DNA from: Ostreococcus lucimarinus
Taxonomy: Eukaryota
Reading direction: 5' to 3' (one strand)
Length of the DNA: 64,000 nt
NCBI GenBank assembly: GCA_000092065.1
Contig: CP000595.1
Shown here piece by piece: positions 33,375-62,987 of this stretch. Numbering within the stretch: position 1 is the first letter of the stretch; every line of letters begins with the position of its first letter. The translations under genes were made by a program, and so were the position numbers. The notes under the pieces are model-generated. The model was not told where the DNA came from and did no database searches. It was given only the letters and a program-made list of their open reading frames with translations.

Positions 33375-33516
33375 CGCGCGCGCGCGCGTCGTCGGTCGCG
33401 GTGTGACGATTCGCTTCGACGAATCGAATCGTCAGAGCGCGACGCCGCGCCGCGCGGACGCGTCGACGCGCGGCGCGACGCGACGGCGACGCGCGCGGTC
33501 CTCCGCGGCGTTTCGC

Positions 33517-33726
33517 ATGTGCGGCGCGTGCCGCGCGCGGCGCGCGAGCGCGAGAGAGACGACGACGCGCGCGGAATTCTGCGCGCCGTGTCGCGACGGC
33601 GCGAGAGCGACGACGACGCGCGCGACGCGCGTCGCGGACGGGGCGTCGTTCGACGTCGTCGTGTGCGGCGCGGGCGCGGCGGGGACGTCGTTCGCGCGGA
33701 CGTACCTGGAGACGACGGCGCGGGGT

Positions 33727-33766
<40 letters not shown>

Positions 33767-35241: not shown

Positions 35242-35323
35242 CGCGACGCGCGAGACGAGCGAGAAACGAATGAAATCAAATGACAATCAACCCTAGACAA
35301 CTACCACCGTCCGACGCCCGCGC

Positions 35324-35727
35324 TCAGTGCGGTTTCGGCACGAACCCGTCCACCGCGAAATTCCGCGTCGCGCGCGGTAAAATCACGACGCATCCCTCCA
35401 ACGCTCCGCGCTCCAGCGTCACCTGACACCCCAACCTCGACGTCGCCGTCAACCCGTACGCCAAATCTAACATGTCGTTCTCGTCGTCGCACGCCTCCGG
35501 CAGCGTCTCGAACACTTTTTCGTCCTCGAACACGACGTGGCACGTGGAACACGCGAGCGAGCCCTCGCACGCGCCCTCGAGCTCGACGTCGTGCCGGTGC
35601 GCCGTCTCCAGCAGGTTCTCGCCAATCAATCCGCGCACCGCGCGTCGCTCACCGTCGCGCTCGACGAACGTCACCTCGATCGAGTTCTCGGGCGTGAGTT
35701 TCGTCTTTTTGTCCGCGCCGTGCGCGA
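35324..35727 (-). pseudogene. 3' fragment of the adrenodoxin-type 2Fe-2S ferredoxin gene, truncated at the duplication boundary
   Basis: Encodes ...VTFVERDGERRAVRGLIGENLLETAHRHDVELEGACEGSLACSTCHVVFEDE...CQVTLERG... identical to the C-terminal two-thirds of the 42442-43047 gene. Homology stops at 35727, upstream of which the presequence is missing. Confidence 0.7.
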
Positions 35728-36283
35728 CCGTGATCCCGGCTCGTCCACGTGGCGCGTACGAATAAGAATGAGAATGAGAATGCGCGGCGATCGAGCGTCT
35801 TCGTTCGCGCGGTCGCGTCCCCGCGCTCGGCCGCTCGTGCGTTCGCGCGCGTTCGCGGTCGAGTCGATCACCGGACGACGCGTTCGTTCGCGCGTCGTCG
35901 AGTGCGGCGACCGAGGGCCGTCGCGCCCGGTGATGCGATGTCCACGTGGGATCGTGGAATATCTGGCTGTGTGCGTAAACAGTGACGGGGGGCTTCTCGG
36001 ATCGACCCCGCGGCCCGTGGGGAGAGGGGCATGGTGTTGGATGGTGTGTACGCGAAACGTGTGTGCATCATACGTATATTGACCCAAAGGTATCTATCAC
36101 GTGTAAAGGTACTAATGTGTGTGTGAAATTCAATGATGGGTCATGACTCGAGAACGGGGGGGGGAGGCACACCCGGGATGCGCGCCGATTCTTATCGACA
36201 GAGGAGGACGAGGAGGACGATTGGCGCGCGCGTCGCGTTCGATGGAAAACCGATGTCGTATGACAAACAGATAAAAACGTTAT

Positions 36284-37702
36284 TTAGTGCGCGTGCCCGT
36301 GCGAGTGGCCGCCGCCGCCGCCGGCTGTGCAGTGCTTGTGGTTGAGGAGCACGAGACTGACGGCGACGACGCCGACGACGAACGTCAAGAGGCTCGCCGC
36401 GCGAAGACGAGACGTAGTGGCGCTCACCGAAACTCGCGGCATACACTCCGCGGCAGCGATTTGTAGATAGATTCCAGCGCCAAAGGCGAGCAAAAGTCCG
36501 TGCCAGAAGTCGTTGTTACTTCCAGATCCAACGCTGATGAGAACGCCGAGGATGACGCTCACGCCGGAGATGAAGTTCATGAACAGCGAGCGAAACGGCG
36601 TGAGATCGCCCTGGAAGGGATCCGTGAGTACCAAATAGTCGGCGAGCTCTTGCGCGATTTCGTGATAGACGGTCGCGGCGGTGATCGACCATCCCATGGT
36701 CTTTCCACAGTTCAGGAAACCGAATCCGATGAAGATGCCATCCACGAGGTTGTGCATGAAATCTCCGAGGATGATGCCGCTTCGAACGCGATACTTGTGC
36801 GAGTGGCACGTTTCGCAATCTTCTTGAACGCCTTTGATCGCGTTCTCCGCGTCGATCGTCTTCGTCTCGGCTAAACGAGAAGGGAACGCGATGGAGATGC
36901 CCAAATCGATGATGTACGCCACGAGAAAGCCAAAGACGGACGCGGACGCCCACCACGCGGTTTGTTGCGACTCATCCGAACCGGCGGGTTTGATCAAATG
37001 CGTGGCTTCGTACAACATCAGATAGAACGCAGCCGAAAGAAGTGCACCGGCGGCAAAGGAGTTAATGATGCAACTCACGAATTCGGGGTACGCTTTCTGC
37101 TTCTTCGCGAAGCTCGGAGAGAGAAAGATGACGCCGGAAAGCGTGACGATGTTGACGATGATCGCCGCCCCGATGGCGTCGGACCACGGTTTTGATTTCT
37201 TTGTAGTCACCGTTTCGGGAAGCGAAGCCACTGGCTCCACGTCATCCCCGTTGACATCCTTGAGATAGTGCGTATCGCGCTCGAACTCGGTGGGAACGTG
37301 CTCGGCGAAAATCGAGACGGCGGCGACGCCAGTCGTATCAATCTTAAACGACGACGTGTGCCAAGCGTTATCAAATTGAAGTTTGACGCATCCACTCCCG
37401 GGCGTCAAAACGCTGTTTCGCGTTTTAACCGTCGTGCACGCCGTCTCGAGCGCGGCCTCGCCCGCGTCCTCGCGAGCCTCGAGCTCTTCGTGTCCGGCGG
37501 CGGTTTCGGCGTAGATGACCATCTTCATGGTCGCGTCCGCGTACTGGTCCTTCACCTTTTCCGCCTGCCACACGTACGCATCGTCCGGAGTCTCAAAGAT
37601 CCCCGCCCATTCGAACGAGTGCGCGTGCGCGCCGGACGCGAGCGCGCCGCGCGCCGCGAGCGCGCTCGAGACGACCGCCGCGCCTCCGAGCGCGGCGCCC
37701 AT
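36284..37702 (-). CDS. ZIP family (LIV-1/KE4-like subfamily) zinc/metal transporter
   Basis: HEIAQELADYLVL (HExPHExGD motif), GDFMHNLVDGIFIGFGF, a C-terminal His-rich GGGGGHSHGHAH tail, and the signal-peptide-like MGAALGGAAVVSSALAARGALASGAHAHS. The start is chosen at that Met. Upstream in-frame Mets exist. Confidence 0.8.
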   Translation of the reverse strand: MGAALGGAAVVSSALAARGALASGAHAHSFEWAGIFETPDDAYVWQAEKVKDQYADATMKMVIYAETAAGHEELEAREDAGEAALETACTTVKTRNSVLTPGSGCVKLQFDNAWHTSSFKIDTTGVAAVSIFAEHVPTEFERDTHYLKDVNGDDVEPVASLPETVTTKKSKPWSDAIGAAIIVNIVTLSGVIFLSPSFAKKQKAYPEFVSCIINSFAAGALLSAAFYLMLYEATHLIKPAGSDESQQTAWWASASVFGFLVAYIIDLGISIAFPSRLAETKTIDAENAIKGVQEDCETCHSHKYRVRSGIILGDFMHNLVDGIFIGFGFLNCGKTMGWSITAATVYHEIAQELADYLVLTDPFQGDLTPFRSLFMNFISGVSVILGVLISVGSGSNNDFWHGLLLAFGAGIYLQIAAAECMPRVSVSATTSRLRAASLLTFVVGVVAVSLVLLNHKHCTAGGGGGHSHGHAH

Positions 37703-37943
37703 CCTCCATCCGCCTCCTCGTCGTCGTCGTCGTCGTCCCGCGCCCGCGGTCGCGTCTCGCGTCGTCATCGCGTCGCGCATCGTCTCGTCTATCGTCTCGT
37801 GCATCGTCTCGTTCGTCGTCGTCGTCGTCGTCGCGCGTCGTCGAGTGCGGCGACCGCGCGCGCCGGCATCGCGACGAGACGACTCGAACCGGCGCGAGGG
37901 GGGTACTTCTCGAGTCATGACTCGATATTCATGAGAACACCAT

Positions 37944-37971
37944 GTGTCGACACCTCGCGAGGTGTCGACAC
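37944..37971. promoter_or_regulatory. 28-bp perfect palindrome GTGTCGACACCTCGCGAGGTGTCGACAC holding two exact ZDRE-type motifs (RTGTCGACAY) in the ZIP/bZIP divergent promoter
   Basis: Read directly. Its reverse complement equals itself. It lies 242 bp upstream of the ZIP ATG (37702, minus strand) and 47 bp upstream of the bZIP ATG (38018). A second palindrome CGAGTCATGACTCG with TGACTC half-sites is at 37911-37924. Confidence 0.65.
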
Positions 37972-38017
37972 GCGTGTCTTCGTACGTCCGCGCGCGACGA
38001 CGACGACGACGACGAGG

Positions 38018-38680
38018 ATGACGACCGTCGGCGGCGCCGCGCGACGTGACGATCGAGGCTCGGCGTTGCCTCCGCGATGCGTCGAGATCGCGCGCGAGTC
38101 GCCGTCGGCGTCGCCGTCTCGAAGGAAAACGCCCGCGAACGATCGCGCCGTCAATCGCGCCGCCGTGCGACGGTACCGCGAGCGCAAACGAATGGACGAG
38201 AAGGAGAGAATCGAGGAGTGCGAACGGTTGCGCGGGGAGAACGAGACGTTGAGACTGGCGTTGGAGACGTCACGAGCGGAGTTGAAACATTCGAGGTGGT
38301 TGTTGCGCGTCGTCGCGTGGAAGTACGACTTAGACTTGGCGGATATTCCGACGGAGAAACCGTCGACGTCGACGATGCCGCAAGGGAGGGTGAGAGGAAG
38401 CGATGCAAACGCGGTGTTTCCCGCGGGTGGGGTCCCCGCGCGGAACGACATCGCGCGACCGTTCGCCGCGCGCGGCGTCGCCGAGACGCGGCCTCGGAAA
38501 ATTCCTCGCGCAGCCGACGACGACGCGAAACCGGCGGGCGCGCCTGATGAACTCGAGCTCAAAGATTTCTTGGAGGAATACTTCACGCACGGCGACGCGT
38601 GCCCGTGCTACGAGATCACGGACGCGGACGCGCGCGCGGCGCCGACGCGCGGCGCCGACGCGCGGCACGCGTGGTTCTAG
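38018..38680 (+). CDS. bZIP-like transcription factor, paralog 1, with a C-terminal Cys motif (FLEEYFTHGDACPCYE)
   Basis: Basic region NRAAVRRYRERKR (N-x7-R), then the zipper EECERLRGENETLRLALETSRAELKHSRWLL. It aligns along its length with the second bZIP at 58700-59194, including the FLxEfxxHxDxxCPC tail. Confidence 0.6.
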   Translation: MTTVGGAARRDDRGSALPPRCVEIARESPSASPSRRKTPANDRAVNRAAVRRYRERKRMDEKERIEECERLRGENETLRLALETSRAELKHSRWLLRVVAWKYDLDLADIPTEKPSTSTMPQGRVRGSDANAVFPAGGVPARNDIARPFAARGVAETRPRKIPRAADDDAKPAGAPDELELKDFLEEYFTHGDACPCYEITDADARAAPTRGADARHAWF

Positions 38681-38850
38681 GTATGACGACACATTTACGT
38701 CACACGGTGAAACGTTTTACGCTTCTAATATTATATTATAAAGTTAGTCAACCTATATAGTTACACGCACCACATGATGTCACACGTGATGTGCACACGC
38801 GTATGTATTCGTACTGTGAGTACAATAAGCCTAACATTGTGTAAAATCCC

Positions 38851-40167
38851 GTGCCCACGATGATCGCGCGTGTCGACACGAACAGACGGTTGGCCGAAAA
38901 GGCGAAAGGGTCGGCGGCTGTCGTCATCTCTCGACGAACGTTGGCGCTCGACATGGCGGACGAGCAAGACCAGACCTCGCGCGTGCCGGTGACCATTCTC
39001 ACCGGATTTCTCGGTTCCGGGAAGACGACGCTCCTCAATGAAATCTTGGAATCCGAAACGCACGGATTGCGCTTCGCGGTGATTGAAAATGAATTCGGAG
39101 AGGTGGGCGTCGACGAGAGGATTCTGTCGGAGAAGGCGGACGAAGAGATCATCGAGGTCATGAACGGTTGCATCTGCTGCACGGTGCGCGGTGATCTCGT
39201 GGTGGCGCTGAAAAAGCTCTACTCGAAGATCGCGCAGTTCGACGCCGTCATCATCGAGACGACGGGTTTGGCGGATCCGGCGCCGGTGGCGCAGACGTTC
39301 TTCGTCGACGATGACATTCGAGAAAAGTTTGTGCTCGACGGAATCATCACGGTCACGGACGCGAAGCACATCCTCACGCGGCTCGATGATGAAAAACCCG
39401 AGGGTGTGGAGAATGAAGCCGCCGAACAGGTCGCTTTTGCCGATCGGATACTCCTCAACAAGACCGACTTGGTGTCCGAAGACGAACTCGAAACCATCAC
39501 GGGCCGGATCAAGCAAATTAATCCGAGCGCCGATATCTTCCGATGCCAGTATTCCAAGGTTGATCCGAAAAATTTGATCGGAATCAATTCCTTCTCGCTC
39601 GAGAAGACCTTAAAAATGGATCCCGAATTCCTCAACACGGAGGGCGAGCATGAACACGACCCAACCGTGTCTTCGACGAGCACAAAATTCTCTGGGCACC
39701 TCAACATCAATAAATTAGAACGCTGGATAGGCGAAATAATTCAAACAATGGGTGCGGACTTGTTTCGGTACAAGGGTGTTCTTTCCGTTGCGGGCATGGA
39801 TCAAAAGTTTGTTTTCCAGGGCGTCGGCATGCTTTTCTCCGGCGGCTTCGTCGACGCCAAGTGGGGAGCCGACGAGGAGCGCGAATGCCGCTTCGTCTTC
39901 ATCGGTAAAAATCTGGACAAAGACGCCCTCATCAACGGTTTCATGGATTGCAAGTGTTCCTCGAAGCTTCGCTTCAAGGTGGGCGACGCGGTTCTCGCGC
40001 AGGTGGGCGCCGCCGACAACGACGGCTACTGCCGCGGCACCGTCCGTAAGACGTGGGACTCGGGCAACCCGTACCAGATCGAACTTGAAGACGGTAAAAA
40101 GACAAAAGTGTGGGGACCCGTCGACGAAGACGAGTTCGTCAAAGCTTCGCTCAGCGCCACCGCGTAA
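38851..40167 (+). CDS. COG0523/CobW-family GTPase (ZNG1-like zinc metallochaperone family)
   Basis: ILTGFLGSGKTTLLNEIL (P-loop), GCICCTVRGDL (CxCC metal motif), DAVIIETTGLADP and a CobW_C-like C-terminus. An exact ZDRE GTGTCGACAC at 38870-38879 lies inside the first annotated codons, so the true start is probably the Met at 38953 (MADEQDQTSRVPVTILTGF). Confidence 0.8.
   Translation: MPTMIARVDTNRRLAEKAKGSAAVVISRRTLALDMADEQDQTSRVPVTILTGFLGSGKTTLLNEILESETHGLRFAVIENEFGEVGVDERILSEKADEEIIEVMNGCICCTVRGDLVVALKKLYSKIAQFDAVIIETTGLADPAPVAQTFFVDDDIREKFVLDGIITVTDAKHILTRLDDEKPEGVENEAAEQVAFADRILLNKTDLVSEDELETITGRIKQINPSADIFRCQYSKVDPKNLIGINSFSLEKTLKMDPEFLNTEGEHEHDPTVSSTSTKFSGHLNINKLERWIGEIIQTMGADLFRYKGVLSVAGMDQKFVFQGVGMLFSGGFVDAKWGADEERECRFVFIGKNLDKDALINGFMDCKCSSKLRFKVGDAVLAQVGAADNDGYCRGTVRKTWDSGNPYQIELEDGKKTKVWGPVDEDEFVKASLSATA
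38870..38879. promoter_or_regulatory. ZDRE-type motif GTGTCGACAC at the 5' end of the COG0523 gene
   Basis: Exact match to RTGTCGACAY. It is 74-83 bp upstream of the alternative start at 38953. Confidence 0.5.
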
Positions 40168-40317
40168 ATGTCGTTTTGTATGAAATCAAATCAAAATTTT
40201 GACCAGTCATGAACCTTCGTGTACACACTCCTCCTTTAGCGCGAACACACACGCATAGTATAGATACAAAAAGACAAGGTAAAACCCATCCAACGCACTC
40301 GCACCGGCTCGCCGGCT

Positions 40318-40492
40318 CGCCTCGTCCGACGCGCGCGCGCGTCCCGGCGTCGATCGCGCCGCGCGCCGTGGATAGCGTTCCTCGCGAAGATCGCGTCGCG
40401 CGGCGCGCCGTCGCGCGGTCGATCGTCGCGCGCGCCGCGTCCGCGCGCGCGAACGTCGCGCGCGTCGCGTCGCGCGCGAGAGAGACGCGCAT
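40318..40492 (-). pseudogene. Duplicated 5' fragment of the GWD gene: promoter-proximal sequence and the first 57 codons, with no downstream GWD sequence
   Basis: ORF 40151-40492 begins MRVSLARDATRATFARADAARATIDRATARRATRSSRGTLSTARGAIDAGTRARVGRG, identical to the GWD N-terminus. It diverges at the repeat edge and runs antisense into the last 17 nt of the COG0523 gene. Confidence 0.7.
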
Positions 40493-40634
40493 CGCGCGCG
40501 CGCGCGTCGTCGGTCGCGGTGTGACGATTCGCTTCGACGAATCGAATCGTCAGAGCGCGACGCCGCGCCGCGCGGACGCGTCGACGCGCGGCGCGACGCG
40601 ACGGCGACGCGCGCGGTCCTCCGCGGCGTTTCGC

Positions 40635-40844
40635 ATGTGCGGCGCGTGCCGCGCGCGGCGCGCGAGCGCGAGAGAGACGACGACGCGCGCGGAATTCTGC
40701 GCGCCGTGTCGCGACGGCGCGAGAGCGACGACGACGCGCGCGACGCGCGTCGCGGACGGGGCGTCGTTCGACGTCGTCGTGTGCGGCGCGGGCGCGGCGG
40801 GGACGTCGTTCGCGCGGACGTACCTGGAGACGACGGCGCGGGGT

Positions 40845-40884
<40 letters not shown>

Positions 40885-42359
40885 CGCGCGGCGCGAGGCT
40901 GCTGCTGCTCGATCGCGGCGGATGCGCGAAGACGGTCGAGCGCGTGGAGCGCGTGACGCGGCGGGCGTCGGTGTACGGCGCGCGGGAGGACGCGCTGGGG
41001 GCGCTGGAGGCGCTGGGGGCGCGGACGGCGACGGCGAGCGTCGCGGCGTGCGACGCCGAGTCGAAGACGTTGACGCTGGACGACGGCGCGCGCGTGCGGT
41101 ACGGCGCGCTGTGCGTCGCCACGGGGGCGACGCCGCGATGTCCACTGCCGGAGGCGAGCGATGGAGCGGTCGACGCGCACGAGGTGCGAGACGTGGAGAG
41201 CGCGGACGCGCTGGCGAGACGGTTGAGCTCGATGACGGCGACGGCGAGCGCGGATTCGGATTCAAAGACGAAACGGATCGCGATCGCGGGGAACGGAGGG
41301 ATCGCGCTCGAGCTCGTCGACGCGCTATGTGTGCGAGGTTTGCGCGCGCGAGGGTTGGAGGCGTGTGAATTGGTGTGGTTGGTGAAACACGGCGAAGTCG
41401 GCGACGCCTTTTTCGACGTCGACGCCGCGGATTTCTTGCTGCGCGCGCTCGACGCGAGACGGCGAGACGGCGAGGCGAAAGACGACGACGGCGCGGACGT
41501 GGACTGGGACTCACCGACGCCCGAACGCGGTGCCGGACGATCGACGAAGAAGCGCGCGCGAGGGCGCGAATCAGGCGCCGCCGCCGGTCCGGATTGGCTC
41601 GACAGATTTAGAGCGAAGAGCGCGGCGGACGACGCGCGCGCGCCTCTCAGCCGCATGAAGCTTCGCGTGCTGAAAAATGTGTGCATACGCGAAGCGCGTA
41701 AAGACGCAAACACCGGCGTCAACGTATTGACGCTGAGCGATGGGACGACGATCGAGGTGGACGCCGTCGTCGCCGCCGCGGGCGTCGAGCCGAGATGCGA
41801 TTGGCTCGACGAAGTCGCCGCGCCGAGGTCGAAATCAGACGGCGGTATACTCGTCGATGCGTGCATGCGCACCGTAGGACCGTACGGCGACTCAATATTT
41901 GCCGTCGGCGACGCGTGCACGATGTCGGCGCGCGCGTCGAACCCAGAGACGCCGTGGTTTCAAATGCGACTGTGGAGCCAGGCGGCGCAAACAGGCGCCT
42001 TCGCCGCGAAAGTCGCCGCGGGCGTCTGCGACGCCGACGCCCTCGGATTCAATTTCGAAATCTTTACCCACGTCACCAGGTTTTTCGGTCTCAAAGTCAT
42101 CTTGCTCGGGCTGTACAACGCCCAGAAGCTCGACGACGTCCCGGCGAACGAGGTGACGACGTACCAGCGCGAGTCGCTCGCCGACGCGACGTACGTGCGC
42201 GTGCTCCTCGTCCGCGGTCGCATGATGGGCGCCGTGCTCGTCGGCGACACCGATCTCGAGGAAACTTTCGAAAACCTAATCTTAGACGGCGTCGATCTAT
42301 CGCGTTTCGGTCCGAGTTTACTCGATCCCGAGCTCGACTTGGAGGATTATTTCGACTGA
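40635..42359 (+). CDS. PYROXD1: PYROXD1-like oxidoreductase, copy B
   Basis: Identical to copy A apart from two amino-acid substitutions noted on inspection (E/D and V/A). Confidence 0.8.
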
Positions 42360-42441
42360 CGCGACGCGCGAGACGAGCGAGAAACGAATGAAATCAAATG
42401 ACAATCAACCCTAGACAACTACCACCGTCCGACGCCCGCGC

Positions 42442-43047
42442 TCAGTGCGGTTTCGGCACGAACCCGTCCACCGCGAAATTCCGCGTCGCGCGCGGTAAAA
42501 TCACGACGCATCCCTCCAACGCTCCGCGCTCCAGCGTCACCTGACACCCCAACCTCGACGTCGCCGTCAACCCGTACGCCAAATCTAACATGTCGTTCTC
42601 GTCGTCGCACGCCTCCGGCAGCGTCTCGAACACTTTTTCGTCCTCGAACACGACGTGGCACGTGGAACACGCGAGCGAGCCCTCGCACGCGCCCTCGAGC
42701 TCGACGTCGTGCCGGTGCGCCGTCTCCAGCAGGTTCTCGCCAATCAATCCGCGCACCGCGCGTCGCTCACCGTCGCGCTCGACGAACGTCACCTCGATCG
42801 AGTTCTCGGGCGTGAGTTTCGTCTTTTTGTCCGCGCCGTGCGCGATCCGCGGCGACGCGGAGACGCCGCGAGCGACGTAAAGCTGGGCAGGTTTCTGGGA
42901 CGCGCGCGGCGCGGCGTCCCGGGGACGCGACGCCGACGCGCGCGGGAGGGCGGTCGAGGCGAAACACGCGGTCGACGACGACGACGACGACGACGACGCG
43001 CATCGCGCGCTCGCGGCGGCGCACGCGCGCGCGAGACGGCGAAACAT
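42442..43047 (-). CDS. Adrenodoxin-type [2Fe-2S] ferredoxin with an N-terminal mitochondrial-type presequence (intact copy)
   Basis: CEGSLACSTCHV matches the CxxxxxCxxCH cluster motif. LDLAYGLTATSRLGCQV gives the fourth Cys. The N-terminus MFRRLARACAAASARCASSSSSSSSTACFAS is R/A/S-rich. It is convergent with PYROXD1 copy B, whose stop is at 42359. Confidence 0.8.
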   Translation of the reverse strand: MFRRLARACAAASARCASSSSSSSSTACFASTALPRASASRPRDAAPRASQKPAQLYVARGVSASPRIAHGADKKTKLTPENSIEVTFVERDGERRAVRGLIGENLLETAHRHDVELEGACEGSLACSTCHVVFEDEKVFETLPEACDDENDMLDLAYGLTATSRLGCQVTLERGALEGCVVILPRATRNFAVDGFVPKPH

Positions 43048-57578: not shown

Positions 57579-58487
57579 CTACAAGCCGTCGAACGCGGGC
57601 GTCTCCGCGCCTTCGGGGAACAACATCGCGAGCTTGACCGCGCCGAGATCGTTGACGACCTTGCTCGCGCCTTCGCCCATGAAATCGGCGCCGATGTTGC
57701 TGCCGCACGGGGTGATGAGACAGGCCATGTCGGCGCCGACGGCGGCGCGCAAGCCGACGATGGAATCTTCCACGACGAGGCACTTGCTCGCGGGCAAGCC
57801 AACCTTGTCTCTGGCGAGGTTGTAGATCAAGGGATCGGGCTTCTTGCGCGTGACGTCGTCACCAGCCATGAGCACGTCGAGCTTGCTCAAACGCTCGACG
57901 CCGACGACGGAGTTGACAACCTTTTCGAAGCCCGCCTTGGTCGCCGCGCTGCAAATCCCCACCGCGATGGAGGGATCGGCGATCGCCTCGTCCATGAGCG
58001 CGAGCACCCCAGGTCGCGCCACAGCCACTTCTTCGACGATCTTTTTATAAATTTCCGTCTTCTTGTCCTGCAACGCGTCGATGAGCGCGTCTCGATCCGC
58101 GTCGCTCGACGGCGCCTCCGCGAACATCGTCGACGTCGGCCACGCCTTTTTATCCTCGTTAAAATGCCATCGCATCTTCGGCTTCCCCCCGCCCACGGTA
58201 TTTTGCAGCACGTCGTAATATTTCACCACCCACTCCACGCCCTCGCCGTCGATTTTCAAATCAAACGCCTCGAACGCGCCGTTGTACGCCAACCGGTGCA
58301 GCTCCTCCGTCTCCACGATGACGCCGTCGCAATCAAACAAAAGCGCGAATCGCGCGTTCTTCGTGTTCGATCCCGCGTTCGCGCGCGTCGTCGTCGCGCG
58401 TCGCGTCGTCTTCGTCGTCTTCTTCGCCGCCGTCGTCCTCGCGCCGCGTTCAACGCGCGTCGACGTCGTCATCGCCGTCATCGCCAT
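57579..58487 (-). CDS. CBBY: CbbY-type HAD-superfamily phosphatase (plastid xylulose-1,5-bisphosphate phosphatase-like)
   Basis: ALLFDCDGVIVETEELHR (HAD motif I DxDG), VGICSAATKAGFEKV, KKPDPLIYNLA and VVEDSIVGLRAA (motifs III/IV). The start is set at MAMTAM; the R-rich ORF extension to 58682 may be a transit peptide or noise. Confidence 0.75.
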   Translation of the reverse strand: MAMTAMTTSTRVERGARTTAAKKTTKTTRRATTTRANAGSNTKNARFALLFDCDGVIVETEELHRLAYNGAFEAFDLKIDGEGVEWVVKYYDVLQNTVGGGKPKMRWHFNEDKKAWPTSTMFAEAPSSDADRDALIDALQDKKTEIYKKIVEEVAVARPGVLALMDEAIADPSIAVGICSAATKAGFEKVVNSVVGVERLSKLDVLMAGDDVTRKKPDPLIYNLARDKVGLPASKCLVVEDSIVGLRAAVGADMACLITPCGSNIGADFMGEGASKVVNDLGAVKLAMLFPEGAETPAFDGL

Positions 58488-58699
58488 CGAATCCGTCCCT
58501 CTTATCGATGACGCGTCTTTTTCGTCGTCGCGCCGGCGTCGCGCGTTCGCGCGTCCGAAACGCCGCCCGAGCGCGTTCGACGCGCGTCCGCTCGCGAATC
58601 CGAGAGCGCGTCGCCGTCGTCGCGTCCGCGTCGCGGTGTGCGCGTCCCGAATCGCGCCGTCCCAGGCCCCTCTTCGTCGCACTTCGCCGCGCGACGCGA

Positions 58700-59194
58700 A
58701 TGCGCGCGTCGCGCGGCGACGACGCGCCGGCGCTCCCGGGACGCGCGGTCGCGGTGGACGAAGACAAAAAATCGATCGACAACGACGCGAACAAGCGCGC
58801 CGTCAAGCGCTACCGCGATCGTCAGCGCGACGCGAAGATGAAGTTGGAATCCGAAAACGCGGCGCTGCGAGTGGAGACGACGCGGTTGGCGACGGAGCTC
58901 GCGCACGCGCGATGGGTGCTCGACGCGGTGGCGTCGCGGTGCGGGATGAAGCGACGCGCGACGGGGCGCGACGCGGACGCGGCGCTGCGCCGAAGCGTCG
59001 CGCGCGTGATCCACGGCGCGGGGTGCCCGCTGGGACATCAGGGGCGGGACAGGCCGTTTCGATTGGACGCGACGGAGGCGAGGCGACGCGAGGACGAGGA
59101 CGAGGACGAGTTGGCGGCGTTTTTGAAGGAGTTTTTGGTGCACGAGGACGGGAAGTGTCCGTGCCCGGGGCGCGCGCGCGATGGGGGCGAGTAG
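58700..59194 (+). CDS. bZIP-like transcription factor, paralog 2, with a C-terminal Cys motif (FLKEFLVHEDGKCPCPG)
   Basis: NKRAVKRYRDRQRDAKMKLESENAALRVETTRLATELAHARWVL aligns with the bZIP at 38018-38680. The ORF could start at 58508, but that would overlap the CbbY ORF on the other strand. Confidence 0.55.
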   Translation: MRASRGDDAPALPGRAVAVDEDKKSIDNDANKRAVKRYRDRQRDAKMKLESENAALRVETTRLATELAHARWVLDAVASRCGMKRRATGRDADAALRRSVARVIHGAGCPLGHQGRDRPFRLDATEARRREDEDEDELAAFLKEFLVHEDGKCPCPGRARDGGE

Positions 59195-59675
59195 AGGATA
59201 GTTGTGTTGTATGAATAGTGATGTGGCGTGACGAACGGATGCGTGTGATCTGCTGCCCCTCAACCGGTCTCTTGAGTCCGTACTGTAGCGCGGAAATTTA
59301 GTAATTCAGAATGAATTAACTGTCTCAACGCCTGATGCGTTCAGCGTTCCACTGCTAAGCGTATCTCTACCTGATGGGGTCCGAGGCCTCGAAGTCCTAG
59401 GCCGAAGGAGATTGAAGGCAATTCGCGTGCGATTCGTGAAAGCAAATGTGCGTCTTATAAACAACCCCGTCGGTAAGGGACGGGTCTAACAAGTGACGCG
59501 CGCAAAGGAGCAGTTGCGCGTGTCGTCGCTTTATTTGCTGACATTTTTTATATAGCGTAATTGGAGGTATTCTAGTACCTCAGAGTTCATATAAGGACGA
59601 TGCGTATACCTATTTACCATAGAAATGGCTAAGGCCCTTTCGTCAGCGTGCGCGACGACGCGCGCCGCGGCGTTA

Positions 59676-61166
59676 CTAGTGCGCGTGCTCGACGCCGAGT
59701 TGCGCGAGCGCGATGACGAGAACGCCGGCGGTGTAACACACGAACTTGTAAATGCGCATGCCGCGCGCGGGCGCTTCGTGCACGGTGTGCGTGTGCGGAG
59801 CGAGTTTATGGTCGTGACCGTGCTCGTCTTCGCACGATTGCGTTTGCGTCTCGAACTCGTCGCCGATGACTTCCACGGTACCGACGTAAATGAACGTACC
59901 GGCGGCGATGCCCTCGAGGACGGCGGAGACGGCTGGGCTGTGTGCGCTTTCCGCCGCGCACCCGATCAAGATCCCGATCGGGGTTATGAACGAAAACGCC
60001 GTCATGAAAATGAAGAGCGTCTGCGGATTCGTCATGCCGCAGCGCAAAAACGCGCACCCGATGCTGAACGCGGCCGCGGCTTTGTGCGACGCGATGGCGG
60101 TGAAAATCGCGTACACACTGTTTCGATCGCTTTGAAGCCCGAGGGAGACACCCGCGAGAGAGGCGTGCAACGCGACGCCCGCCATGAAGAGCAAAGCCGT
60201 TCTCGTCTGCGCGAAGATGGACACGTGACGACCCTTCTCGTCGTGCGCGCACGTGTCGCACGCGTCGGTCGACGCCTTGTCCACGACGACGACGACGGCC
60301 GCATCGACGTGATGTTCTTTACTTTGTCCGTGTCCGTGTCCGTGTCCGTGGCCGTGCTCTCCGTCGCCCTCGCTCTCCGTCACGTGCGAGTGCGTGTGAA
60401 ACACGACGCGTTCGACGAAGAACGCGATGAGAAATCCCAGCATGACCATGACCATGGCGAAAGGATACTCCTTCGCCGTACCGATGCGTGCCTCCGTCGC
60501 GCTCTCGAGCGCGTGCGGGACGAGGTGCACGAACCCAGACGCGAGAAACAATCCCCCGCTGAACGCGTTCATAAACTCCAACGCGCTCTGCATCTTCGGC
60601 AGCGTTCTCACGAACAGCGACGGCAACATTCCTCCCGCCAAACCTTCAAAAAACACAGCCACCATGAGACCCATCTTGAGTTTGAAATGCTTCAACCCAC
60701 CCGTCGCCGCCGCCGCGCTTTCCGCCTCGCTCGCGATGAACGTGCACGTCGACTCGCTCAGGCACCGCGCCGCCAAACTCAGCGCCGAGAGCAACTCGGT
60801 CTCGTTCAACTTTTGATCCGCGCCCGCGTACGTCGTGATCACGTCCGCCGACGACACGTTCGTCAGCGTCTCCTCCGCGCTCGCGTGCGCGTGTCCAGCG
60901 CTCGCGTGCGCGTGTCCAGCGTGCGAATCCGCGCCCGCGCCCGCGCCGCTCGTCCTCGCCGCGAACCGCTCGAACAATTCGCTCAGCTCGTGAGCGTCCA
61001 TCGTCGCGTCGTCGTTGTCGTCGTTGTACGTCTCCAAGATGTGATCCACCGGCGTCTCGTCGCCTCTCGCGACGCGCGCCATCGCGCACGCGCACGCGCA
61101 CACCGTCAGCGCCGTCGCGAATCGCGCGCGCGCCCGTCGACACCGCCGCCGGTCGTTCGCCGTCAT
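59676..61166 (-). CDS. ZIP family zinc/metal transporter with a His-rich loop
   Basis: FFEGLAGGMLPS, HGHGHGHGHGQSKEHH loop, HKAAAAFSIGCAF, GIAAGTFIYVGTVEVIGDEF. The start is taken at MTANDRRRC (ATG complement at 61166-61164). The 1118-aa track ORF is inflated by stop-free antisense sequence of the LHC gene. Confidence 0.8.
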   Translation of the reverse strand: MTANDRRRCRRARARFATALTVCACACAMARVARGDETPVDHILETYNDDNDDATMDAHELSELFERFAARTSGAGAGADSHAGHAHASAGHAHASAEETLTNVSSADVITTYAGADQKLNETELLSALSLAARCLSESTCTFIASEAESAAAATGGLKHFKLKMGLMVAVFFEGLAGGMLPSLFVRTLPKMQSALEFMNAFSGGLFLASGFVHLVPHALESATEARIGTAKEYPFAMVMVMLGFLIAFFVERVVFHTHSHVTESEGDGEHGHGHGHGHGQSKEHHVDAAVVVVVDKASTDACDTCAHDEKGRHVSIFAQTRTALLFMAGVALHASLAGVSLGLQSDRNSVYAIFTAIASHKAAAAFSIGCAFLRCGMTNPQTLFIFMTAFSFITPIGILIGCAAESAHSPAVSAVLEGIAAGTFIYVGTVEVIGDEFETQTQSCEDEHGHDHKLAPHTHTVHEAPARGMRIYKFVCYTAGVLVIALAQLGVEHAH

Positions 61167-61398
61167 CTTGTCTCGCGCCGTCGCGAATCGCGCGCGCGTC
61201 GAGTCCCGGTCTCGACGCCCGCGCCCGGTTCGCCCCGGTTCGAGCGCGCGCGAACGAGCCGAAGAGGCGTCGCGAAGTGCGGCGATGCGCGCGCGTCGTG
61301 CACGTGTCGACGATTCGCGTCGTGCACGTGTCGAGGATCGTCGTACGCGACGCCCCGCGAAGCCCATCACGGATCGCGTCGCGACGCGCGTCGTAAAC

Positions 61399-61556
61399 AT
61401 GTCGACACGCATGTCGACATATTTACCCACGCGCGTGTACGCATTGAACCCCGTGATGCATCTATATACGAAAAACGTCTCGACGCACATGTCGACATAT
61501 TTACCCCACGCGCGTGTACGCATTGAACCCCGTGATGCATCTATATACGAAACAGA
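61399..61556. promoter_or_regulatory. Tandemly repeated ~78-bp element (about 2.2 copies) carrying three exact ZDRE-type motifs, in the divergent promoter between the ZIP gene (minus) and the LHC gene (plus)
   Basis: ATGTCGACAC at 61399-61408 and ATGTCGACAT at 61411-61420 and 61489-61498. The repeat unit gtcgacatatttacc(c)cacgcgcgtgtacgcattgaaccccgtgatgcatctatatacgaaa starts at 61413 and 61491. It lies 233-392 bp upstream of the ZIP ATG. Confidence 0.65.
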
Positions 61557-61715: not shown

Positions 61716-61853
61716 ATGTTCAAGACGAAAGCCCCCGCGCCGAAGACGGCGGTGAAGAAATCCGCGCCGGCGAAGAAGGCGCCGGCGAAGAAGGCGCCGG
61801 CGAAGAAGGTCGCGGCGAAGAAGGCGCCCGTTCGCAAGGCGGGCGACGACGAG
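61716..61853 (+). CDS. Putative exon 1 of a light-harvesting chlorophyll a/b-binding protein gene, Lys/Ala/Pro-rich (tentative)
   Basis: MFKTKAPAPKTAVKKSAPAKKAPAKKAPAKKVAAKKAPVRKAGDDE followed by a GAG|GTGCGA donor. Joined in phase to the next exon through a tag|CTC acceptor at 62259/62260. There is no classic transit peptide, so the assignment is uncertain. Confidence 0.35.
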
Positions 61854-62259
61854 GTGCGACGCGAACGACGACGATCGCGACGACCGGGCGCGCGCGACGA
61901 CGCGATGGCGCGCGCGACGACGCGATTGAATGGGAAGAATATTCGCGGCGCGCGTCGGGCGGGGACGGCGCGACGCGCGGCGGGAGGGGAGACGGGAAGG
62001 CGATGGATGCGCGGACGGGGACGATATCCTGGAGATATGGTTTGACGCGCGCGACGCGGGCGCGAGACGCGAGGGCGGCGCGCGGCGCGAGACGGTCGCG
62101 AACGATCGAGAGGGAGAGAAATCGTGGACGCGCGCGCGGTGCGGGACGGATCGGCGGGTCGACGCGCGCGGTGGGCGACGCGGGAGGGCGCGACGCGAAG
62201 ACGACGAGACGACGCGAGACGGAGGACTGACGGCGAACGCTCGCGTTCTCGCGCGATAG

Positions 62260-62345
62260 CTCTGGCGTCCGGGTGCCGTGCGACCGGCGTGGTTGGATGG
62301 CTCTCTCCCGGGTGACCGTGGATTCGATCCGTTCAACTTGTCCAA
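62260..62345 (+). CDS. LHC exon encoding the conserved N-terminal motif
   Basis: [29 protein letters not shown] matches the LHC N-terminal WLPG...LDGSLPGD(F/Y)GFDPLGL consensus. An in-frame TAG lies just upstream (62257-62259), so it must be an internal exon. A GTGCGT donor is at 62346. Confidence 0.6.
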
Positions 62346-62428
62346 GTGCGTGTGGCGACGTGACGCGATGCGACGCGAGCGCGCGAGACGCGTCGACGAA
62401 TCGCAGACTGACGGCGTTTGTTTCGCAG

Positions 62429-62987
62429 GCCGATTGAATACGTTCAATTCGATCTTGACGCTCTCGATGGCTCCGCCGCGACGAACCCGGCGGGTCGGGT
62501 GATCGGTAAGCTCAAGAAGACCGACAACAAGCCGAAGGCGCGCGCGATCGTGCCGTACGACGAGTCCTTCGACATCATGCGCTTCCGCGAGTGCGAACTC
62601 TTGCACTCTCGCTGGGCCATGCTCGGCTTGGTCGGCGCCACCGCCGCGGAAGCCGCCACGGGTATCTCCTGGGCCGACGCCGGTAAGGTTGAACTTGAAC
62701 AACCGCAATACCTCGGCTTCCCGCTCCCGGGCTTGTCCGTCGCCTCCTTGACGGCGATTGAAGTGCTCGCGATGGGTTACCTCGAAGTCGCCCGCTCGGC
62801 GGAGCTCGACCAAAACAAGCGCATGTACCCGGGCGGCGCGTTCGACCCGCTCGGCTACGTCGCCAACGCCGACGCCGAGGAGGAATTCCGCCTCAAGACG
62901 GCTGAACTCAAGCACGGTCGCTTGGCAATGGTGGGCATGTTGATCATCTCCATCGAAGCCGCGGCCGGCCACGGCGTGCTTCCGTAA
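62429..62987 (+). CDS. LHC main exon (chlorophyll a/b-binding, green-lineage type)
   Basis: [21 protein letters not shown] (helix 1), [32 protein letters not shown] (helix 3). A cag acceptor at 62426-62428 keeps phase with the previous exon (AA+G gives K, then [10 protein letters not shown]). Confidence 0.8.

What the first reader, a model, noticed from the sequence alone, without database searches (positions are those of the whole stretch)
58700..61556. Second ZIP and bZIP pair, with ZDRE copies multiplied by a promoter tandem repeat
The convergent bZIP2 (plus strand, ends 59194) and ZIP2 (minus strand, 3' end 59676) lie next to a 78-bp tandem repeat (61399-61556). Each unit carries ATGTCGACAT, with an extra ATGTCGACAC at its left edge. 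This gives three ZDREs 233-392 bp upstream of ZIP2 and also 218-317 bp upstream of the LHC gene on the other strand. Tandem duplication of a cis-element is a simple route to stronger zinc responsiveness, and it may also put an LHC gene under metal control.
Basis: partly seen in the sequence, partly recalled or inferred. Interest (0 to 1): 0.6.

Follow-up and report, generated by a model that had tools for sequence, protein, structure and literature searches.

The report
Copy-variable bZIP sites upstream of ZIP2
In the tiny marine green alga Ostreococcus lucimarinus, a metal-transporter gene carries a tandemly multiplied copy of the same 10-base DNA element that land plants use to switch on zinc uptake, next to a small bZIP regulator gene; this matters because that circuit has been reported as absent from green algae.

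Summary
The window is Ostreococcus lucimarinus CCE9901. bZIP2 (58700-59194, +) and ZIP2 (59676-61166, -) are convergent genes. A 78/79-bp repeat of two units (61395-61552) lies in the ZIP2/CP29 intergenic region and carries three exact RTGTCGACAY sites.

The window has only six exact sites, against 0.59 expected. The other three sit at a ZIP1-bZIP1-COG0523 cluster. One-mismatch sites occur at the chance rate.

In about 278 kb of related Ostreococcus DNA, all 62 exact sites lie in these same intergenic regions. Every ZIP2 ortholog (51-98% identity) with enough upstream sequence keeps at least one site. This includes a lineage where the neighbouring gene is not CP29.

Copy number is polymorphic: two or three units within the species and one to four sites across lineages. 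12-bp micro-arrays have arisen repeatedly.

The bZIPs share the plant F-bZIP DNA-contact signature (N-x2-AV-x2-YR). They lack the plant zinc-sensor motif and have a conserved C-terminal CPC motif instead. Overall they are as close to ATF4 as to F-bZIPs.

Published O. tauri data show the orthologous ZIP1, COG0523 and probable ZIP2 genes rising together. That experiment lowered iron; zinc was not tested.

Verdict: a real, conserved metal-deficiency module that works like the plant bZIP-ZDRE-ZIP circuit. The metal signal and any dosage effect of the repeat are inferred.

The parts
58700..59194 (+). bZIP2 coding sequence (164 aa, XP_001421642.1). It has the basic region NKRAVKRYRDRQR, a short zipper, and the conserved blocks ELAHARWVLDAVA, HGAGCPL, PFRLD and ELAAFLKEFLVHEDGKCPCPG.
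   Evidence: ORF. Exact match to the annotated protein. Pfam bZIP_2 E=0.005, 17.3 bits, below the 22.3 cut-off. Paralog of bZIP1, E=4e-13. AlphaFold2 gives a continuous helix over residues 21-80, with block-mean pLDDT of 95 or more for residues 31-60. Orthologs lie in conserved synteny in every lineage recovered.
59676..61166 (-). ZIP2 coding sequence, a ZIP/ZRT-IRT family metal transporter with three His-rich stretches including GEHGHGHGHGHGQ. The annotated start is the second in-frame ATG at 61082. The ATG at 61166 adds a signal-peptide-like N-terminus.
   Evidence: Pfam PF02535 8e-48. TIGR00820 2.5e-29. XP_001421787.1, named 'ZIP family transporter: zinc ion', is 468 aa and starts at 61082. 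An R-rich then hydrophobic N-terminus is also present in the L024 ortholog.
61399..61408 (.). ZDRE-type site ATGTCGACAC. It is the extra copy made by a 12-bp micro-duplication (ATGTCGACACGC).
   Evidence: It is absent in the 96%-identity lineage contig L015, where the sequence reads AAAC-ATGTCGACAT directly.
61411..61420 (.). ZDRE-type site ATGTCGACAT at the start of repeat unit 1.
61489..61498 (.). ZDRE-type site ATGTCGACAT at the start of repeat unit 2.
61395..61552 (.). Tandem repeat of 78/79 bp, two units. Each unit holds a ZDRE, then ATTTACCC(C), then a GC-rich block, then CTATATAC (TATA-like). Copy number is polymorphic in the species.
   Evidence: Tandem Repeats Finder. Allele series: two units in the window, L002 and L011; three units in L001, L010, L012 and L013.
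61716..62987 (+). CP29 (Lhcb4) gene with three exons, divergent from ZIP2. It shares the 550-bp intergenic region.
   Evidence: Sequence. Pfam Chloroa_b-bind 5e-29. PDB CP29/Lhcb4 hits from 2e-55.
36284..37918 (-). ZIP1, a second and distantly related ZIP transporter. It is divergent from bZIP1 and belongs to the same presumed regulon.
   Evidence: Pfam Zip 3e-21. The O. tauri ortholog is ostta06g02310 (1422 nt, locus L006).
37944..37971 (.). Two ZDRE-type sites (GTGTCGACAC at 37944 and at 37962) in the ZIP1/bZIP1 divergent promoter.
   Evidence: Orthologous promoters carry three sites in O. tauri L006, three in L007 and five in L008/L009.
38018..38680 (+). bZIP1 coding sequence (220 aa, XP_001421633.1). 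It has the basic region NRAAVRRYRERKR and the C-terminal block ELELKDFLEEYFTHGDACPC.
   Evidence: Pfam bZIP_2 9.4e-7, above the cut-off. Exact annotated protein. The O. tauri ortholog is P0030/ostta06g02300.
38683..38692 (.). Variant site ATGACGACAC between bZIP1 and COG0523. It matches the RTGACGACAY substitution reported as common in plant ZDREs.
   Evidence: Equivalent variant sites sit upstream of cobW in O. tauri (L006 8645 and 8721) and in L008. The plant variant is described in PMC5476651.
38870..38879 (.). ZDRE-type site GTGTCGACAC, 83 bp upstream of the annotated COG0523 ATG.
38953..40167 (+). COG0523/CobW-type G3E GTPase (XP_001421634.1), a candidate metallochaperone with a GCICC motif.
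   Evidence: Pfam cobW 2e-61 and CobW_C 9e-23. Exact annotated protein. NCBIfam matches to YjiA, CobW and ZigA models, all below their cut-offs.

Best explanation
The three ATGTCGACAY palindromes upstream of ZIP2 are binding sites for dimers of the Ostreococcus bZIP1/bZIP2 family. They belong to a small, conserved metal-deficiency regulon made up of ZIP1, bZIP1, a COG0523 GTPase and ZIP2.

The bZIPs carry the same base-contacting residues as plant bZIP19/23 (N-x2-A-V-x2-Y-R), and the element matches the plant ZDRE consensus. The module therefore most likely works like the plant circuit. When the metal is scarce, the bZIP is free to activate transporter and chaperone genes. When the metal is sufficient, it binds conserved Cys/His ligands in the protein (the invariant CPC, flanked by an acidic-hydrophobic ELxxFLxEF block) and switches the activator off. 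Zinc is the favoured signal; iron is the main alternative.

The 78-bp repeat is a slippage-type, copy-number-variable array that multiplies the site. It gives ZIP2 two to four binding sites per allele and probably tunes induction strength.

Shown here: the sites, their enrichment, their conservation and turnover, the copy-number polymorphism, the shared basic-region signature, and the synteny.
Taken from a published dataset: co-induction of the O. tauri orthologs.
Inferred: which protein binds the sites, which metal is sensed, the role of the CPC motif, and the dosage effect.
For: Specificity:
- There are 6 exact sites in 64 kb against 0.59 expected, all in three intergenic regions next to ZIP1/bZIP1, COG0523 and ZIP2.
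- One-mismatch sites occur at the chance rate.
- The palindrome core shows 6 occurrences against 1.32 expected.

Conservation:
- Every ZIP2 ortholog with about 400 bp or more of upstream sequence (identity 51-98%, at least four lineages) has one or more sites 230-530 bp upstream.
- The sites turn over. L020 and L017 keep site B and have a degenerate site A. L027 keeps site A and has lost site B.
- L024 keeps four sites although its neighbour is not CP29.
- O. tauri has three sites spaced 12 bp apart between ZIP1 and bZIP1.

Regulator:
- bZIP1 and bZIP2 are paralogs.
- Each is linked to a ZIP gene in all lineages recovered.
- The basic region is N-R-A-A-V-R-R-Y-R-E-R-K-R, against plant G-N-R-E-A-V-R-K-Y-R-E-K-K-K taken from verified F-bZIP sequences.
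- C153, C155, H69 and W72 are invariant across both families.
- More distant bZIP2 orthologs end in CPCPGHHSHHG.

Expression in O. tauri (PMC4855317):
- Only two of six ZIP genes respond. They are ostta06g02310, the ZIP1 ortholog, and Ot-Irt1.
- The adjacent cobW gene, ostta06g02290, rises about 8- to 18-fold.

Copy number:
- Two or three units occur among contigs 93-100% identical to the window.
- 12-bp micro-arrays have arisen independently in several promoters.
- In plants, ZIP4-group promoters carry one to four ZDREs, and AtZIP4 needs both of its sites for strong induction (PMC5476651).
Against: - No binding, expression or metal-binding data exist for O. lucimarinus.
- The only transcript data, from O. 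tauri, used iron limitation rather than zinc limitation.
- Orthology of Ot-Irt1 with ZIP2 rests on the described features (a GH repeat and three His-rich motifs), not on a sequence alignment.
- The bZIPs lack the plant zinc-sensor motif.
- The domain is no closer to F-bZIPs (28.5-32.6 bits) than to human ATF4 (31.7 bits).
- The AV..YR signature also occurs in a nematode bZIP (P0053), so it is not unique to F-bZIPs.
- bZIP2 falls below the Pfam cut-off.
- The C-terminal region is modelled with low confidence.
- The transcription start sites are unknown. The T-rich/TATA-like element next to each site lies on the CP29 side.
- bZIP2 has no site in its own upstream region.
Confidence: 0.6

Rival explanations
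1. The architecture is the same, but the signal is iron or iron/zinc cross-talk rather than zinc. The element would be an iron-deficiency response element, with ZIP2 (Ot-Irt1-like) acting as a ferrous iron importer.
For: In O. tauri, ostta06g02310 (ZIP1), ostta16g02300 (Ot-Irt1) and cobW ostta06g02290 are induced after one week at 54 nM against 1080 nM Fe-EDTA (PMC4855317). ZIP2 has an IRT1-like (GH)n loop. ZIP-family transporters carry iron as well as zinc (TIGR00820 'ZIP zinc/iron transport family').
Against: The same paper states there is 'no obvious iron regulon' and stresses a strong iron/zinc link. It reports many zinc-protein genes induced at low iron, which could raise zinc demand secondarily. 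COG0523 genes are zinc-deficiency markers in Chlamydomonas and in bacteria (PMC2770081). The cis-element matches the plant zinc element exactly. The conserved ligands are a Cys-rich CPC, which is typical of zinc or copper sites rather than iron sites; this last point rests on general knowledge.
Confidence: 0.25
2. The sites are functional, but the 78-bp repeat is a neutral, slippage-prone minisatellite. The extra copies have no effect on expression.
For: Copy number differs among near-identical strains. The middle unit carries three different 10-bp micro-duplications in L010, L012 and L013, which suggests a high mutation rate. Other lineages manage with a single consensus site.
Against: Multiplication of this motif has happened independently at two scales (12 bp and 78 bp) and in several promoters and lineages. 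That pattern is not expected for an arbitrary sequence. The motif itself is intact in every unit of every allele. Copy number matters in plants (PMC5476651).
Confidence: 0.3
3. The palindrome serves the CP29 gene or a shared bidirectional core promoter, for example light or circadian control, and is bound by some other factor. Its proximity to ZIP and bZIP genes would be incidental.
For: Each site is followed on the CP29 side by a T-rich/TATA-like element (ATTTACCC, ATTTATACCCC, TTTTTTAT). The CP29-ZIP2 pairing is conserved in most lineages. O. tauri metal genes are strongly regulated by the day/night cycle (PMC4855317).
Against: The same exact motif marks the ZIP1/bZIP1 and COG0523 promoters, where no LHC gene is present. 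L024 keeps four sites upstream of ZIP2 with a different neighbour. No exact site occurs elsewhere in 278 kb.
Confidence: 0.1

Closest known systems
Land-plant F-bZIP (bZIP19/bZIP23) - ZDRE - ZIP zinc-deficiency circuit
   Same: The 10-bp element is identical (RTGTCGACAY), and so is the RTGACGACAY variant. It sits in ZIP-gene promoters in one to five copies. The bZIP carries the same base-contacting residues (N..AV..YR, RYRE+basic). Conserved Cys/His residues lie outside the bZIP domain.
   Different: The algal proteins are short (164-220 aa) and lack the two-part N-terminal CxHTHTC...HTHTCxHxH zinc-sensor motif. They have a C-terminal H-x(2-4)-CPC(PGH) motif instead. The domain is not closer to F-bZIPs than to ATF4. 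The regulator genes are physically linked to their presumed targets, and a COG0523 gene is part of the cluster. The sensed metal is untested. The published view is that F-bZIPs are absent from green algae, including this very species (PMC5476651, PMC9643250).
ATF4/ATF5 and C/EBP-type bZIPs (animals)
   Same: ATF4 is the best solved-structure match (1ci6_A, 34 bits). These proteins share the RYR-x-KKR basic region. O. tauri bZIP1 was annotated as ATF4/5-like in PMC4855317.
   Different: ATF4 has AA rather than AV at the contact positions. It binds CRE/CARE sites, not TGTCGACA (from general knowledge). It has no link to metal transporters and no CPC tail.
Yeast Zap1 zinc-responsive activation domains
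   Same: This is a functional analogy only. An acidic/hydrophobic activation segment sits next to Cys/His ligands, so metal binding could mask activation. The regulator is autoregulated and controls ZRT (ZIP) genes.
   Different: Zap1 is a C2H2 zinc-finger protein that binds an 11-bp ZRE. It has no homology to the bZIPs here. The comparison rests on general knowledge and was not tested.
Promoter VNTRs and homotypic clusters of transcription-factor binding sites
   Same: Head-to-tail duplication of a unit containing a binding site, with copy number polymorphic within a species.
   Different: Here the unit also duplicates a TATA-like element, and the same motif is multiplied at a second, 12-bp scale.

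Membership tests
Plant F-group bZIP (bZIP19/23/24) | bZIP domain (a basic region followed by a leucine zipper) | tested here: met
   bZIP1 matches Pfam bZIP_2 at 29.3 bits, above the 22.3 cut-off. bZIP2 scores only 17.3 bits, but it is a clear paralog (E=4e-13) and has a 60-residue helix modelled with high confidence in its central part.
Plant F-group bZIP (bZIP19/23/24) | Basic-region signature GNREAVRKYREKKKA (contact residues N, A, V, Y, R) | tested here: met
   Verified plant sequences P0161-P0240 carry NREAVRKYREKKK. bZIP1 has NRAAVRRYRERKR and bZIP2 has NKRAVKRYRDRQR. Some bZIP2 orthologs have AT or AA in place of AV. The signature is not exclusive to F-bZIPs; it also occurs in nematode protein P0053.
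Plant F-group bZIP (bZIP19/23/24) | Two-part Cys/His-rich zinc-sensor motif N-terminal to the bZIP domain, highly conserved in all land-plant F-bZIPs (PMC9643250) | tested here: not met
   No Cys/His-rich stretch lies N-terminal to the basic region in any algal member. The conserved Cys/His residues are C-terminal (CPC, and HGxGCPL in bZIP2).
Plant F-group bZIP (bZIP19/23/24) | Domain groups specifically with F-bZIPs rather than with other bZIP groups | tested here: inconclusive
   Against the algal domain profile, plant F-bZIPs score 28.5-32.6 bits and human ATF4 scores 31.7 bits. The best PDB hit is ATF4. No canonical plant F-bZIP reached E<1e-3 in the search of 1.84 billion representatives. 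No phylogeny with all plant bZIP groups was possible.
Plant F-group bZIP (bZIP19/23/24) | Binds the ZDRE and activates ZIP genes only under zinc deficiency | not testable with these tools
   Only indirect support exists: co-occurrence of motif and genes and co-induction of the O. tauri orthologs under low iron (PMC4855317).
ZDRE cis-element | 10-bp imperfect palindrome RTGTCGACAY | tested here: met
   Consensus as given in PMC9643250.
ZDRE cis-element | Located in promoters of ZIP genes of the regulon, usually in more than one copy | tested here: met
   Found upstream of ZIP1, ZIP2 and COG0523 in the window and in every lineage sampled, with one to five copies.
ZDRE cis-element | Confers zinc-deficiency-dependent transcription | not testable with these tools
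   No zinc-limitation transcript data for any Ostreococcus were found in the library.
ZIP (Zrt/Irt-like) transporter | PF02535 domain covering the transmembrane core | tested here: met
   ZIP2 matches at 163.8 bits over profile positions 2-321 of 323. It is annotated 'ZIP family transporter: zinc ion'.
Tandem repeat / promoter VNTR | Two or more head-to-tail units, with copy number differing between individuals | tested here: met
   Tandem Repeats Finder gives 2.0 copies at 93% matches. Two- and three-unit alleles occur among conspecific contigs.

The most novel reading that the evidence does not exclude
The bZIP-ZDRE-ZIP(-COG0523) zinc-deficiency circuit predates land plants. Under this reading, the Ostreococcus bZIP1/bZIP2 proteins descend from the same ancestral regulator as plant F-bZIPs. 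They keep its DNA specificity and its target genes but sense the metal through a different, C-terminal CPC-type site. This would identify the long-sought zinc sensor and regulator of a green alga and overturn the view that the circuit arose with terrestrialisation.
Probability: 0.3. Interest if true: 0.85.

Novelty: new variant of a known kind. Interest (0 to 1): 0.66.

Why it matters
Two published analyses state that F-bZIPs, and by implication the ZDRE circuit, are confined to land plants. They name O. lucimarinus as a genome that lacks them (PMC5476651, PMC9643250). The zinc sensors and regulators of green algae were reported as unknown (PMC2770081).

This locus and its sister locus give concrete candidates for all three components:
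- two small bZIP genes;
- an exact cis-element;
- four target genes.

Ostreococcus has a compact genome, and published gene-knockout attempts and metal-limitation culture methods exist for O. tauri (PMC4855317). The question is therefore directly testable.

Zinc and iron limit marine phytoplankton. A natural promoter polymorphism of two or three units upstream of a metal importer is a candidate for adaptive tuning of metal uptake in wild populations.

The locus also offers a test of whether regulator-element-target triads can persist over roughly a billion years or arise by convergence.

Tried and rejected
- Rfam (gathering thresholds) and ARAGORN on the whole window found nothing. The AT-richer gap between bZIP2 and ZIP2 is therefore not a known RNA gene.
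- That gap (59247-59650) proved to be a 404-bp presence/absence polymorphism. It has no other copy in the DNA held and only a weak fold signal, z -1.9. I did not pursue it.
- An exact look-up of the long ZIP2 model found nothing. The annotated model starts at the second ATG.
- I first thought the bZIP genes were unannotated in O. lucimarinus. That was wrong: both are 'predicted protein' entries.
- My first HMM comparison seemed to place the algal bZIPs nearer ATF4 than F-bZIPs. It was biased, because the ATF4-like set had been selected by the algal profile and the F-bZIP set was nearly invariant. The fairer test shows equidistance.
- The AlphaFold2 model of bZIP2 (mean pLDDT 66.5) gave no usable model of the C-terminal Cys/His region, so I ran no fold search.
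- NCBIfam has no model matching the bZIPs.
- Contig L011 seemed to show a tandem duplication of the whole repeat-ZIP2-bZIP2 cassette. The junction contains an inverted copy of adjacent sequence and may be an assembly chimera.
- Locus L029, which encodes an F-like bZIP with N-terminal Cys/His motifs from an unknown picoeukaryote, has no ZDRE in 22 kb.
- The sigma-70 promoter/terminator scanner was not used, because the organism is a eukaryote.


Full report
**Organism and gene models**

Exact protein look-ups place the window in Ostreococcus lucimarinus CCE9901, on a 468,366-bp record. The matches are XP_001421780.1, XP_001421785.1 and the CobW-like XP_001421634.1.

- My bZIP2 model (58700-59191) is exactly XP_001421642.1.
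- bZIP1 (38018-38677) is exactly XP_001421633.1.
- ZIP2 is annotated as XP_001421787.1, 'ZIP family transporter: zinc ion', starting at the second in-frame ATG at 61082.
The same kind of N-terminus is present in a distant ortholog, so I prefer 61166. I give distances to both.

**Checking the observation**

- bZIP2 ends at 59194, and the ZIP2 stop codon ends at 59676 on the minus strand.
- Tandem Repeats Finder reports a 79-bp period with 2.0 copies at 61395-61552 and 93% matches.
- ATGTCGACAC lies at 61399, and ATGTCGACAT at 61411 and 61489.
- The sites are 233-332 bp from the ATG at 61166, 317-416 bp from the annotated ATG, and 218-317 bp from the LHC ATG at 61716.
- The LHC is CP29/Lhcb4.
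- ZIP2 is a clear ZIP protein (Pfam 8e-48).
- bZIP2 alone is only a sub-threshold bZIP_2 match. It is nevertheless a paralog of bZIP1 (E=4e-13), and bZIP1 passes the cut-off. AlphaFold2 models a 60-residue continuous helix with high confidence in its central part.

**Is the motif more than chance?**

- RTGTCGACAY occurs six times in 64 kb against 0.59 expected; no shuffle out of 100 reached six.
- The other three sites lie at 37944 and 37962, between ZIP1 and bZIP1, and at 38870, 83 bp upstream of a COG0523 GTPase gene.
- Sites with one mismatch or fewer number 16 against 14.5 expected. Only the exact consensus is enriched.
- The 8-bp core is six against 1.32 under a third-order Markov model, and all six copies carry purine/pyrimidine flanks.
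- Two of the six sites are repeat copies of each other, so the count of independent events is lower than six.

**Related sequences**

bZIP2 has only nine relatives among 5.8 billion proteins, and bZIP1 has 29. The only bZIP1 relative whose listed name gives an organism is the O. tauri entry 'Basic-leucine zipper domain'. A profile search of 1.84 billion representatives found 39 hits, so the family is small.

I fetched the contigs for these proteins and 19 metagenomic ZIP2 loci. The order CP29 / ZIP2 / bZIP2 / HAD hydrolase is conserved wherever the contigs reach, across ZIP2 identities of 51-98%.

Every ZIP2 locus with roughly 400 bp or more of upstream sequence has at least one exact site 230-530 bp upstream. 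The loci without a site are truncated within 43-389 bp of the gene.

The sites turn over. L020 and L017 keep a consensus distal site and have a degenerate proximal one (CTGTCGACAT). L027 keeps the proximal site, and its distal one has decayed to ATGTCATCAT.

In L024 the divergent neighbour is an EF-hand protein rather than CP29, yet four sites remain, three of them spaced 12 bp apart. The element therefore travels with ZIP2.

At the sister locus, O. tauri has ZIP1, bZIP1 and cobW in the same order, with three sites spaced 12 bp apart between ZIP1 and bZIP1. L008 and L009 have five sites, and L007 has four.

The variant ATGACGACAY lies upstream of cobW in O. lucimarinus, in O. tauri and in L008. 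It is the substitution reported as the commonest variant in plant ZDREs (PMC5476651).

**The repeat is polymorphic**

L001 is 93-100% identical to the window over most of the locus but carries a third unit. The alleles are:

- Two units: the window, L002 and L011.
- Three units: L001, L010, L012 and L013. In the last three, the middle unit carries three different 10-bp micro-duplications.
- L015, from a lineage with 96% identity, lacks the extra 12-bp ATGTCGACACGC.

More distant lineages have no 78-bp repeat. The same motif has therefore been multiplied repeatedly at two scales, 12 bp and 78 bp. Each 78-bp unit also duplicates an adjacent ATTTACCCC element and a CTATATAC element.

**The regulator**

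Plant F-bZIP sequences were retrieved and checked. Their basic region is GNREAVRKYREKKKA. bZIP1 has VNRAAVRRYRERKRM and bZIP2 has ANKRAVKRYRDRQRD. The positions that contact bases in bZIP-DNA structures (N, A, V, Y, R; this assignment rests on general knowledge of GCN4-type complexes) are identical.

Against this:

- The algal proteins lack the N-terminal Cys/His zinc-sensor motif that defines F-bZIPs (PMC9643250).
- The algal domain profile scores plant F-bZIPs at 28.5-32.6 bits and human ATF4 at 31.7 bits.
- ATF4 is the best solved-structure match.
- O. tauri bZIP1 was annotated as ATF4/5-like.

I therefore do not file these proteins as F-bZIPs.

What is conserved instead lies at the C-terminus. 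An acidic-hydrophobic block, (D/E)EL-x2-FL-x-E(F/Y), is followed by an invariant C-P-C. The bZIP2 branch adds HGxGCPL. More distant bZIP2 orthologs end in CPCPGHHSHHG. I infer that this is the metal-sensing part. The inference is untested, and the structure model is uninformative for this region.

**Expression evidence from the literature**

Lelandais et al. 2016 (PMC4855317) found that only two of six O. tauri ZIP genes respond to iron deprivation.

- One is ostta06g02310. Its 1422-nt length and position identify it as the ZIP1 ortholog in L006.
- The other is ostta16g02300, 'Ot-Irt1', described as having a GHGHGHGHGHG motif and three His-rich regions. This matches ZIP2 here, which has GEHGHGHGHGHGQ plus two further His-rich stretches. 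I could not align the two sequences, so the orthology is probable rather than shown.

Their supplementary table gives these values for paired samples:

| Gene | Paired expression values | Log fold change |
|---|---|---|
| cobW, ostta06g02290 | 110/9.6, 157/15, 135/16, 235/13 | 3.5 |
| ZIP1 | 3- to 6-fold | not read |
| bZIP, ostta06g02300 | mild change | not read |

The genes flanked by the motif are therefore co-regulated.

The treatment was one week at 54 nM against 1080 nM Fe-EDTA. The authors themselves report no obvious iron regulon and a strong iron-zinc connection. Which metal is sensed remains open. I rate zinc more likely, because of the COG0523 partner (zinc-deficiency induced in Chlamydomonas, PMC2770081), the Cys-rich ligands and the identity of the element. 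Iron is a serious rival.

**Comparison with what is known, and novelty**

The closest known system is the land-plant bZIP19/23-ZDRE-ZIP circuit. Castro et al. 2017 wrote that no F-bZIPs were observed in O. lucimarinus or Chlamydomonas. The 2022 review repeats that F-bZIPs are found only in land plants. My literature searches found no report of a ZDRE or a metal-linked bZIP in any alga.

The module here works like the plant circuit, but it uses a bZIP family that fails one defining F-bZIP feature and is inconclusive on another. I therefore class it as a new variant of a known kind. Whether the resemblance reflects common descent or convergence cannot be decided with these data.

- The anatomy is right.
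- The idea that tandem duplication multiplies a functional cis-element is well supported by conservation and polymorphism.
- Stronger zinc responsiveness is plausible but untested, and the metal may be iron.
- Control of the LHC gene is weakened by the L024 result, but not excluded.

Noticed in passing
window 36284-40167: ZIP1, bZIP1 and a COG0523 GTPase form a compact cluster with three exact ZDRE-type sites and one variant site. The same gene order and sites occur in O. tauri (L006) and in related contigs (L007-L009).
   Followed up: yes
window 33191-35730 and 40307-42849: A 2.54-kb direct duplication at 99.6% identity carries a pyridine-nucleotide-disulphide oxidoreductase gene. It brackets the ZIP1-bZIP1-COG0523 cluster with 7.1-kb spacing. 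This could be a recent partial tandem duplication or an assembly effect.
   Followed up: partly
window 59247-59650: A 404-bp segment with lower GC (0.485) lies between the 3' ends of bZIP2 and ZIP2. It is present in CCE9901, L010, L011, L012 and L013 and absent in L001, L002, L014 and L015. GCGTG flanks both ends, which could be a target-site duplication. No other copy exists in the DNA held, there is no Rfam hit, and the fold z-score is -1.9.
   Followed up: partly
window 58400-58900: The HAD/bZIP2 intergenic region and the bZIP2 N-terminus are only 57-76% identical between the window and L001. The rest of the locus is 93-100% identical, so this is a local hotspot of divergence.
   Followed up: no
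L011 2918-3178: In this 3.2-kb metagenome contig, a second and non-identical copy of the ZDRE repeat follows directly upstream of bZIP2, after an inverted copy of adjacent sequence. This is either a rearranged or duplicated ZIP2-bZIP2 cassette in some strain, or an assembly chimera.
   Followed up: partly
window 3688-26742: A single uninterrupted ORF of 7,684 codons lies on the plus strand in the lower-GC part of the window. It was not examined.
   Followed up: no
L029 10001-12163 (protein P0281; also P0046, P0054): An unknown GC-rich picoeukaryote encodes a 720-aa protein with N-terminal Cys/His-rich stretches (CSHHAHGHACHEV, ECVHVHR, MCFHTHR) and two bZIP basic regions reading GNRAAVRRYRERKKA. 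Its layout is closer to the F-bZIP layout than that of the Ostreococcus proteins. No ZDRE occurs in its 22-kb locus.
   Followed up: partly
L008 10929 and 11036-12796: In an O. tauri-like contig, a third ZIP gene with an N-terminal EF-hand region follows cobW. It has a variant ATGACGACAT site about 100 bp upstream.
   Followed up: no
L010, L012, L013 repeat middle unit: Three contigs each have an 89-bp middle unit, but the 10-bp insertions differ (ATTTACCCCTATTAACCCC, ATATTTCGACATATTTACCCC, ATTTACCCCTATTTACCCC). This suggests recurrent micro-duplication next to the binding site, or assembly noise.
   Followed up: no
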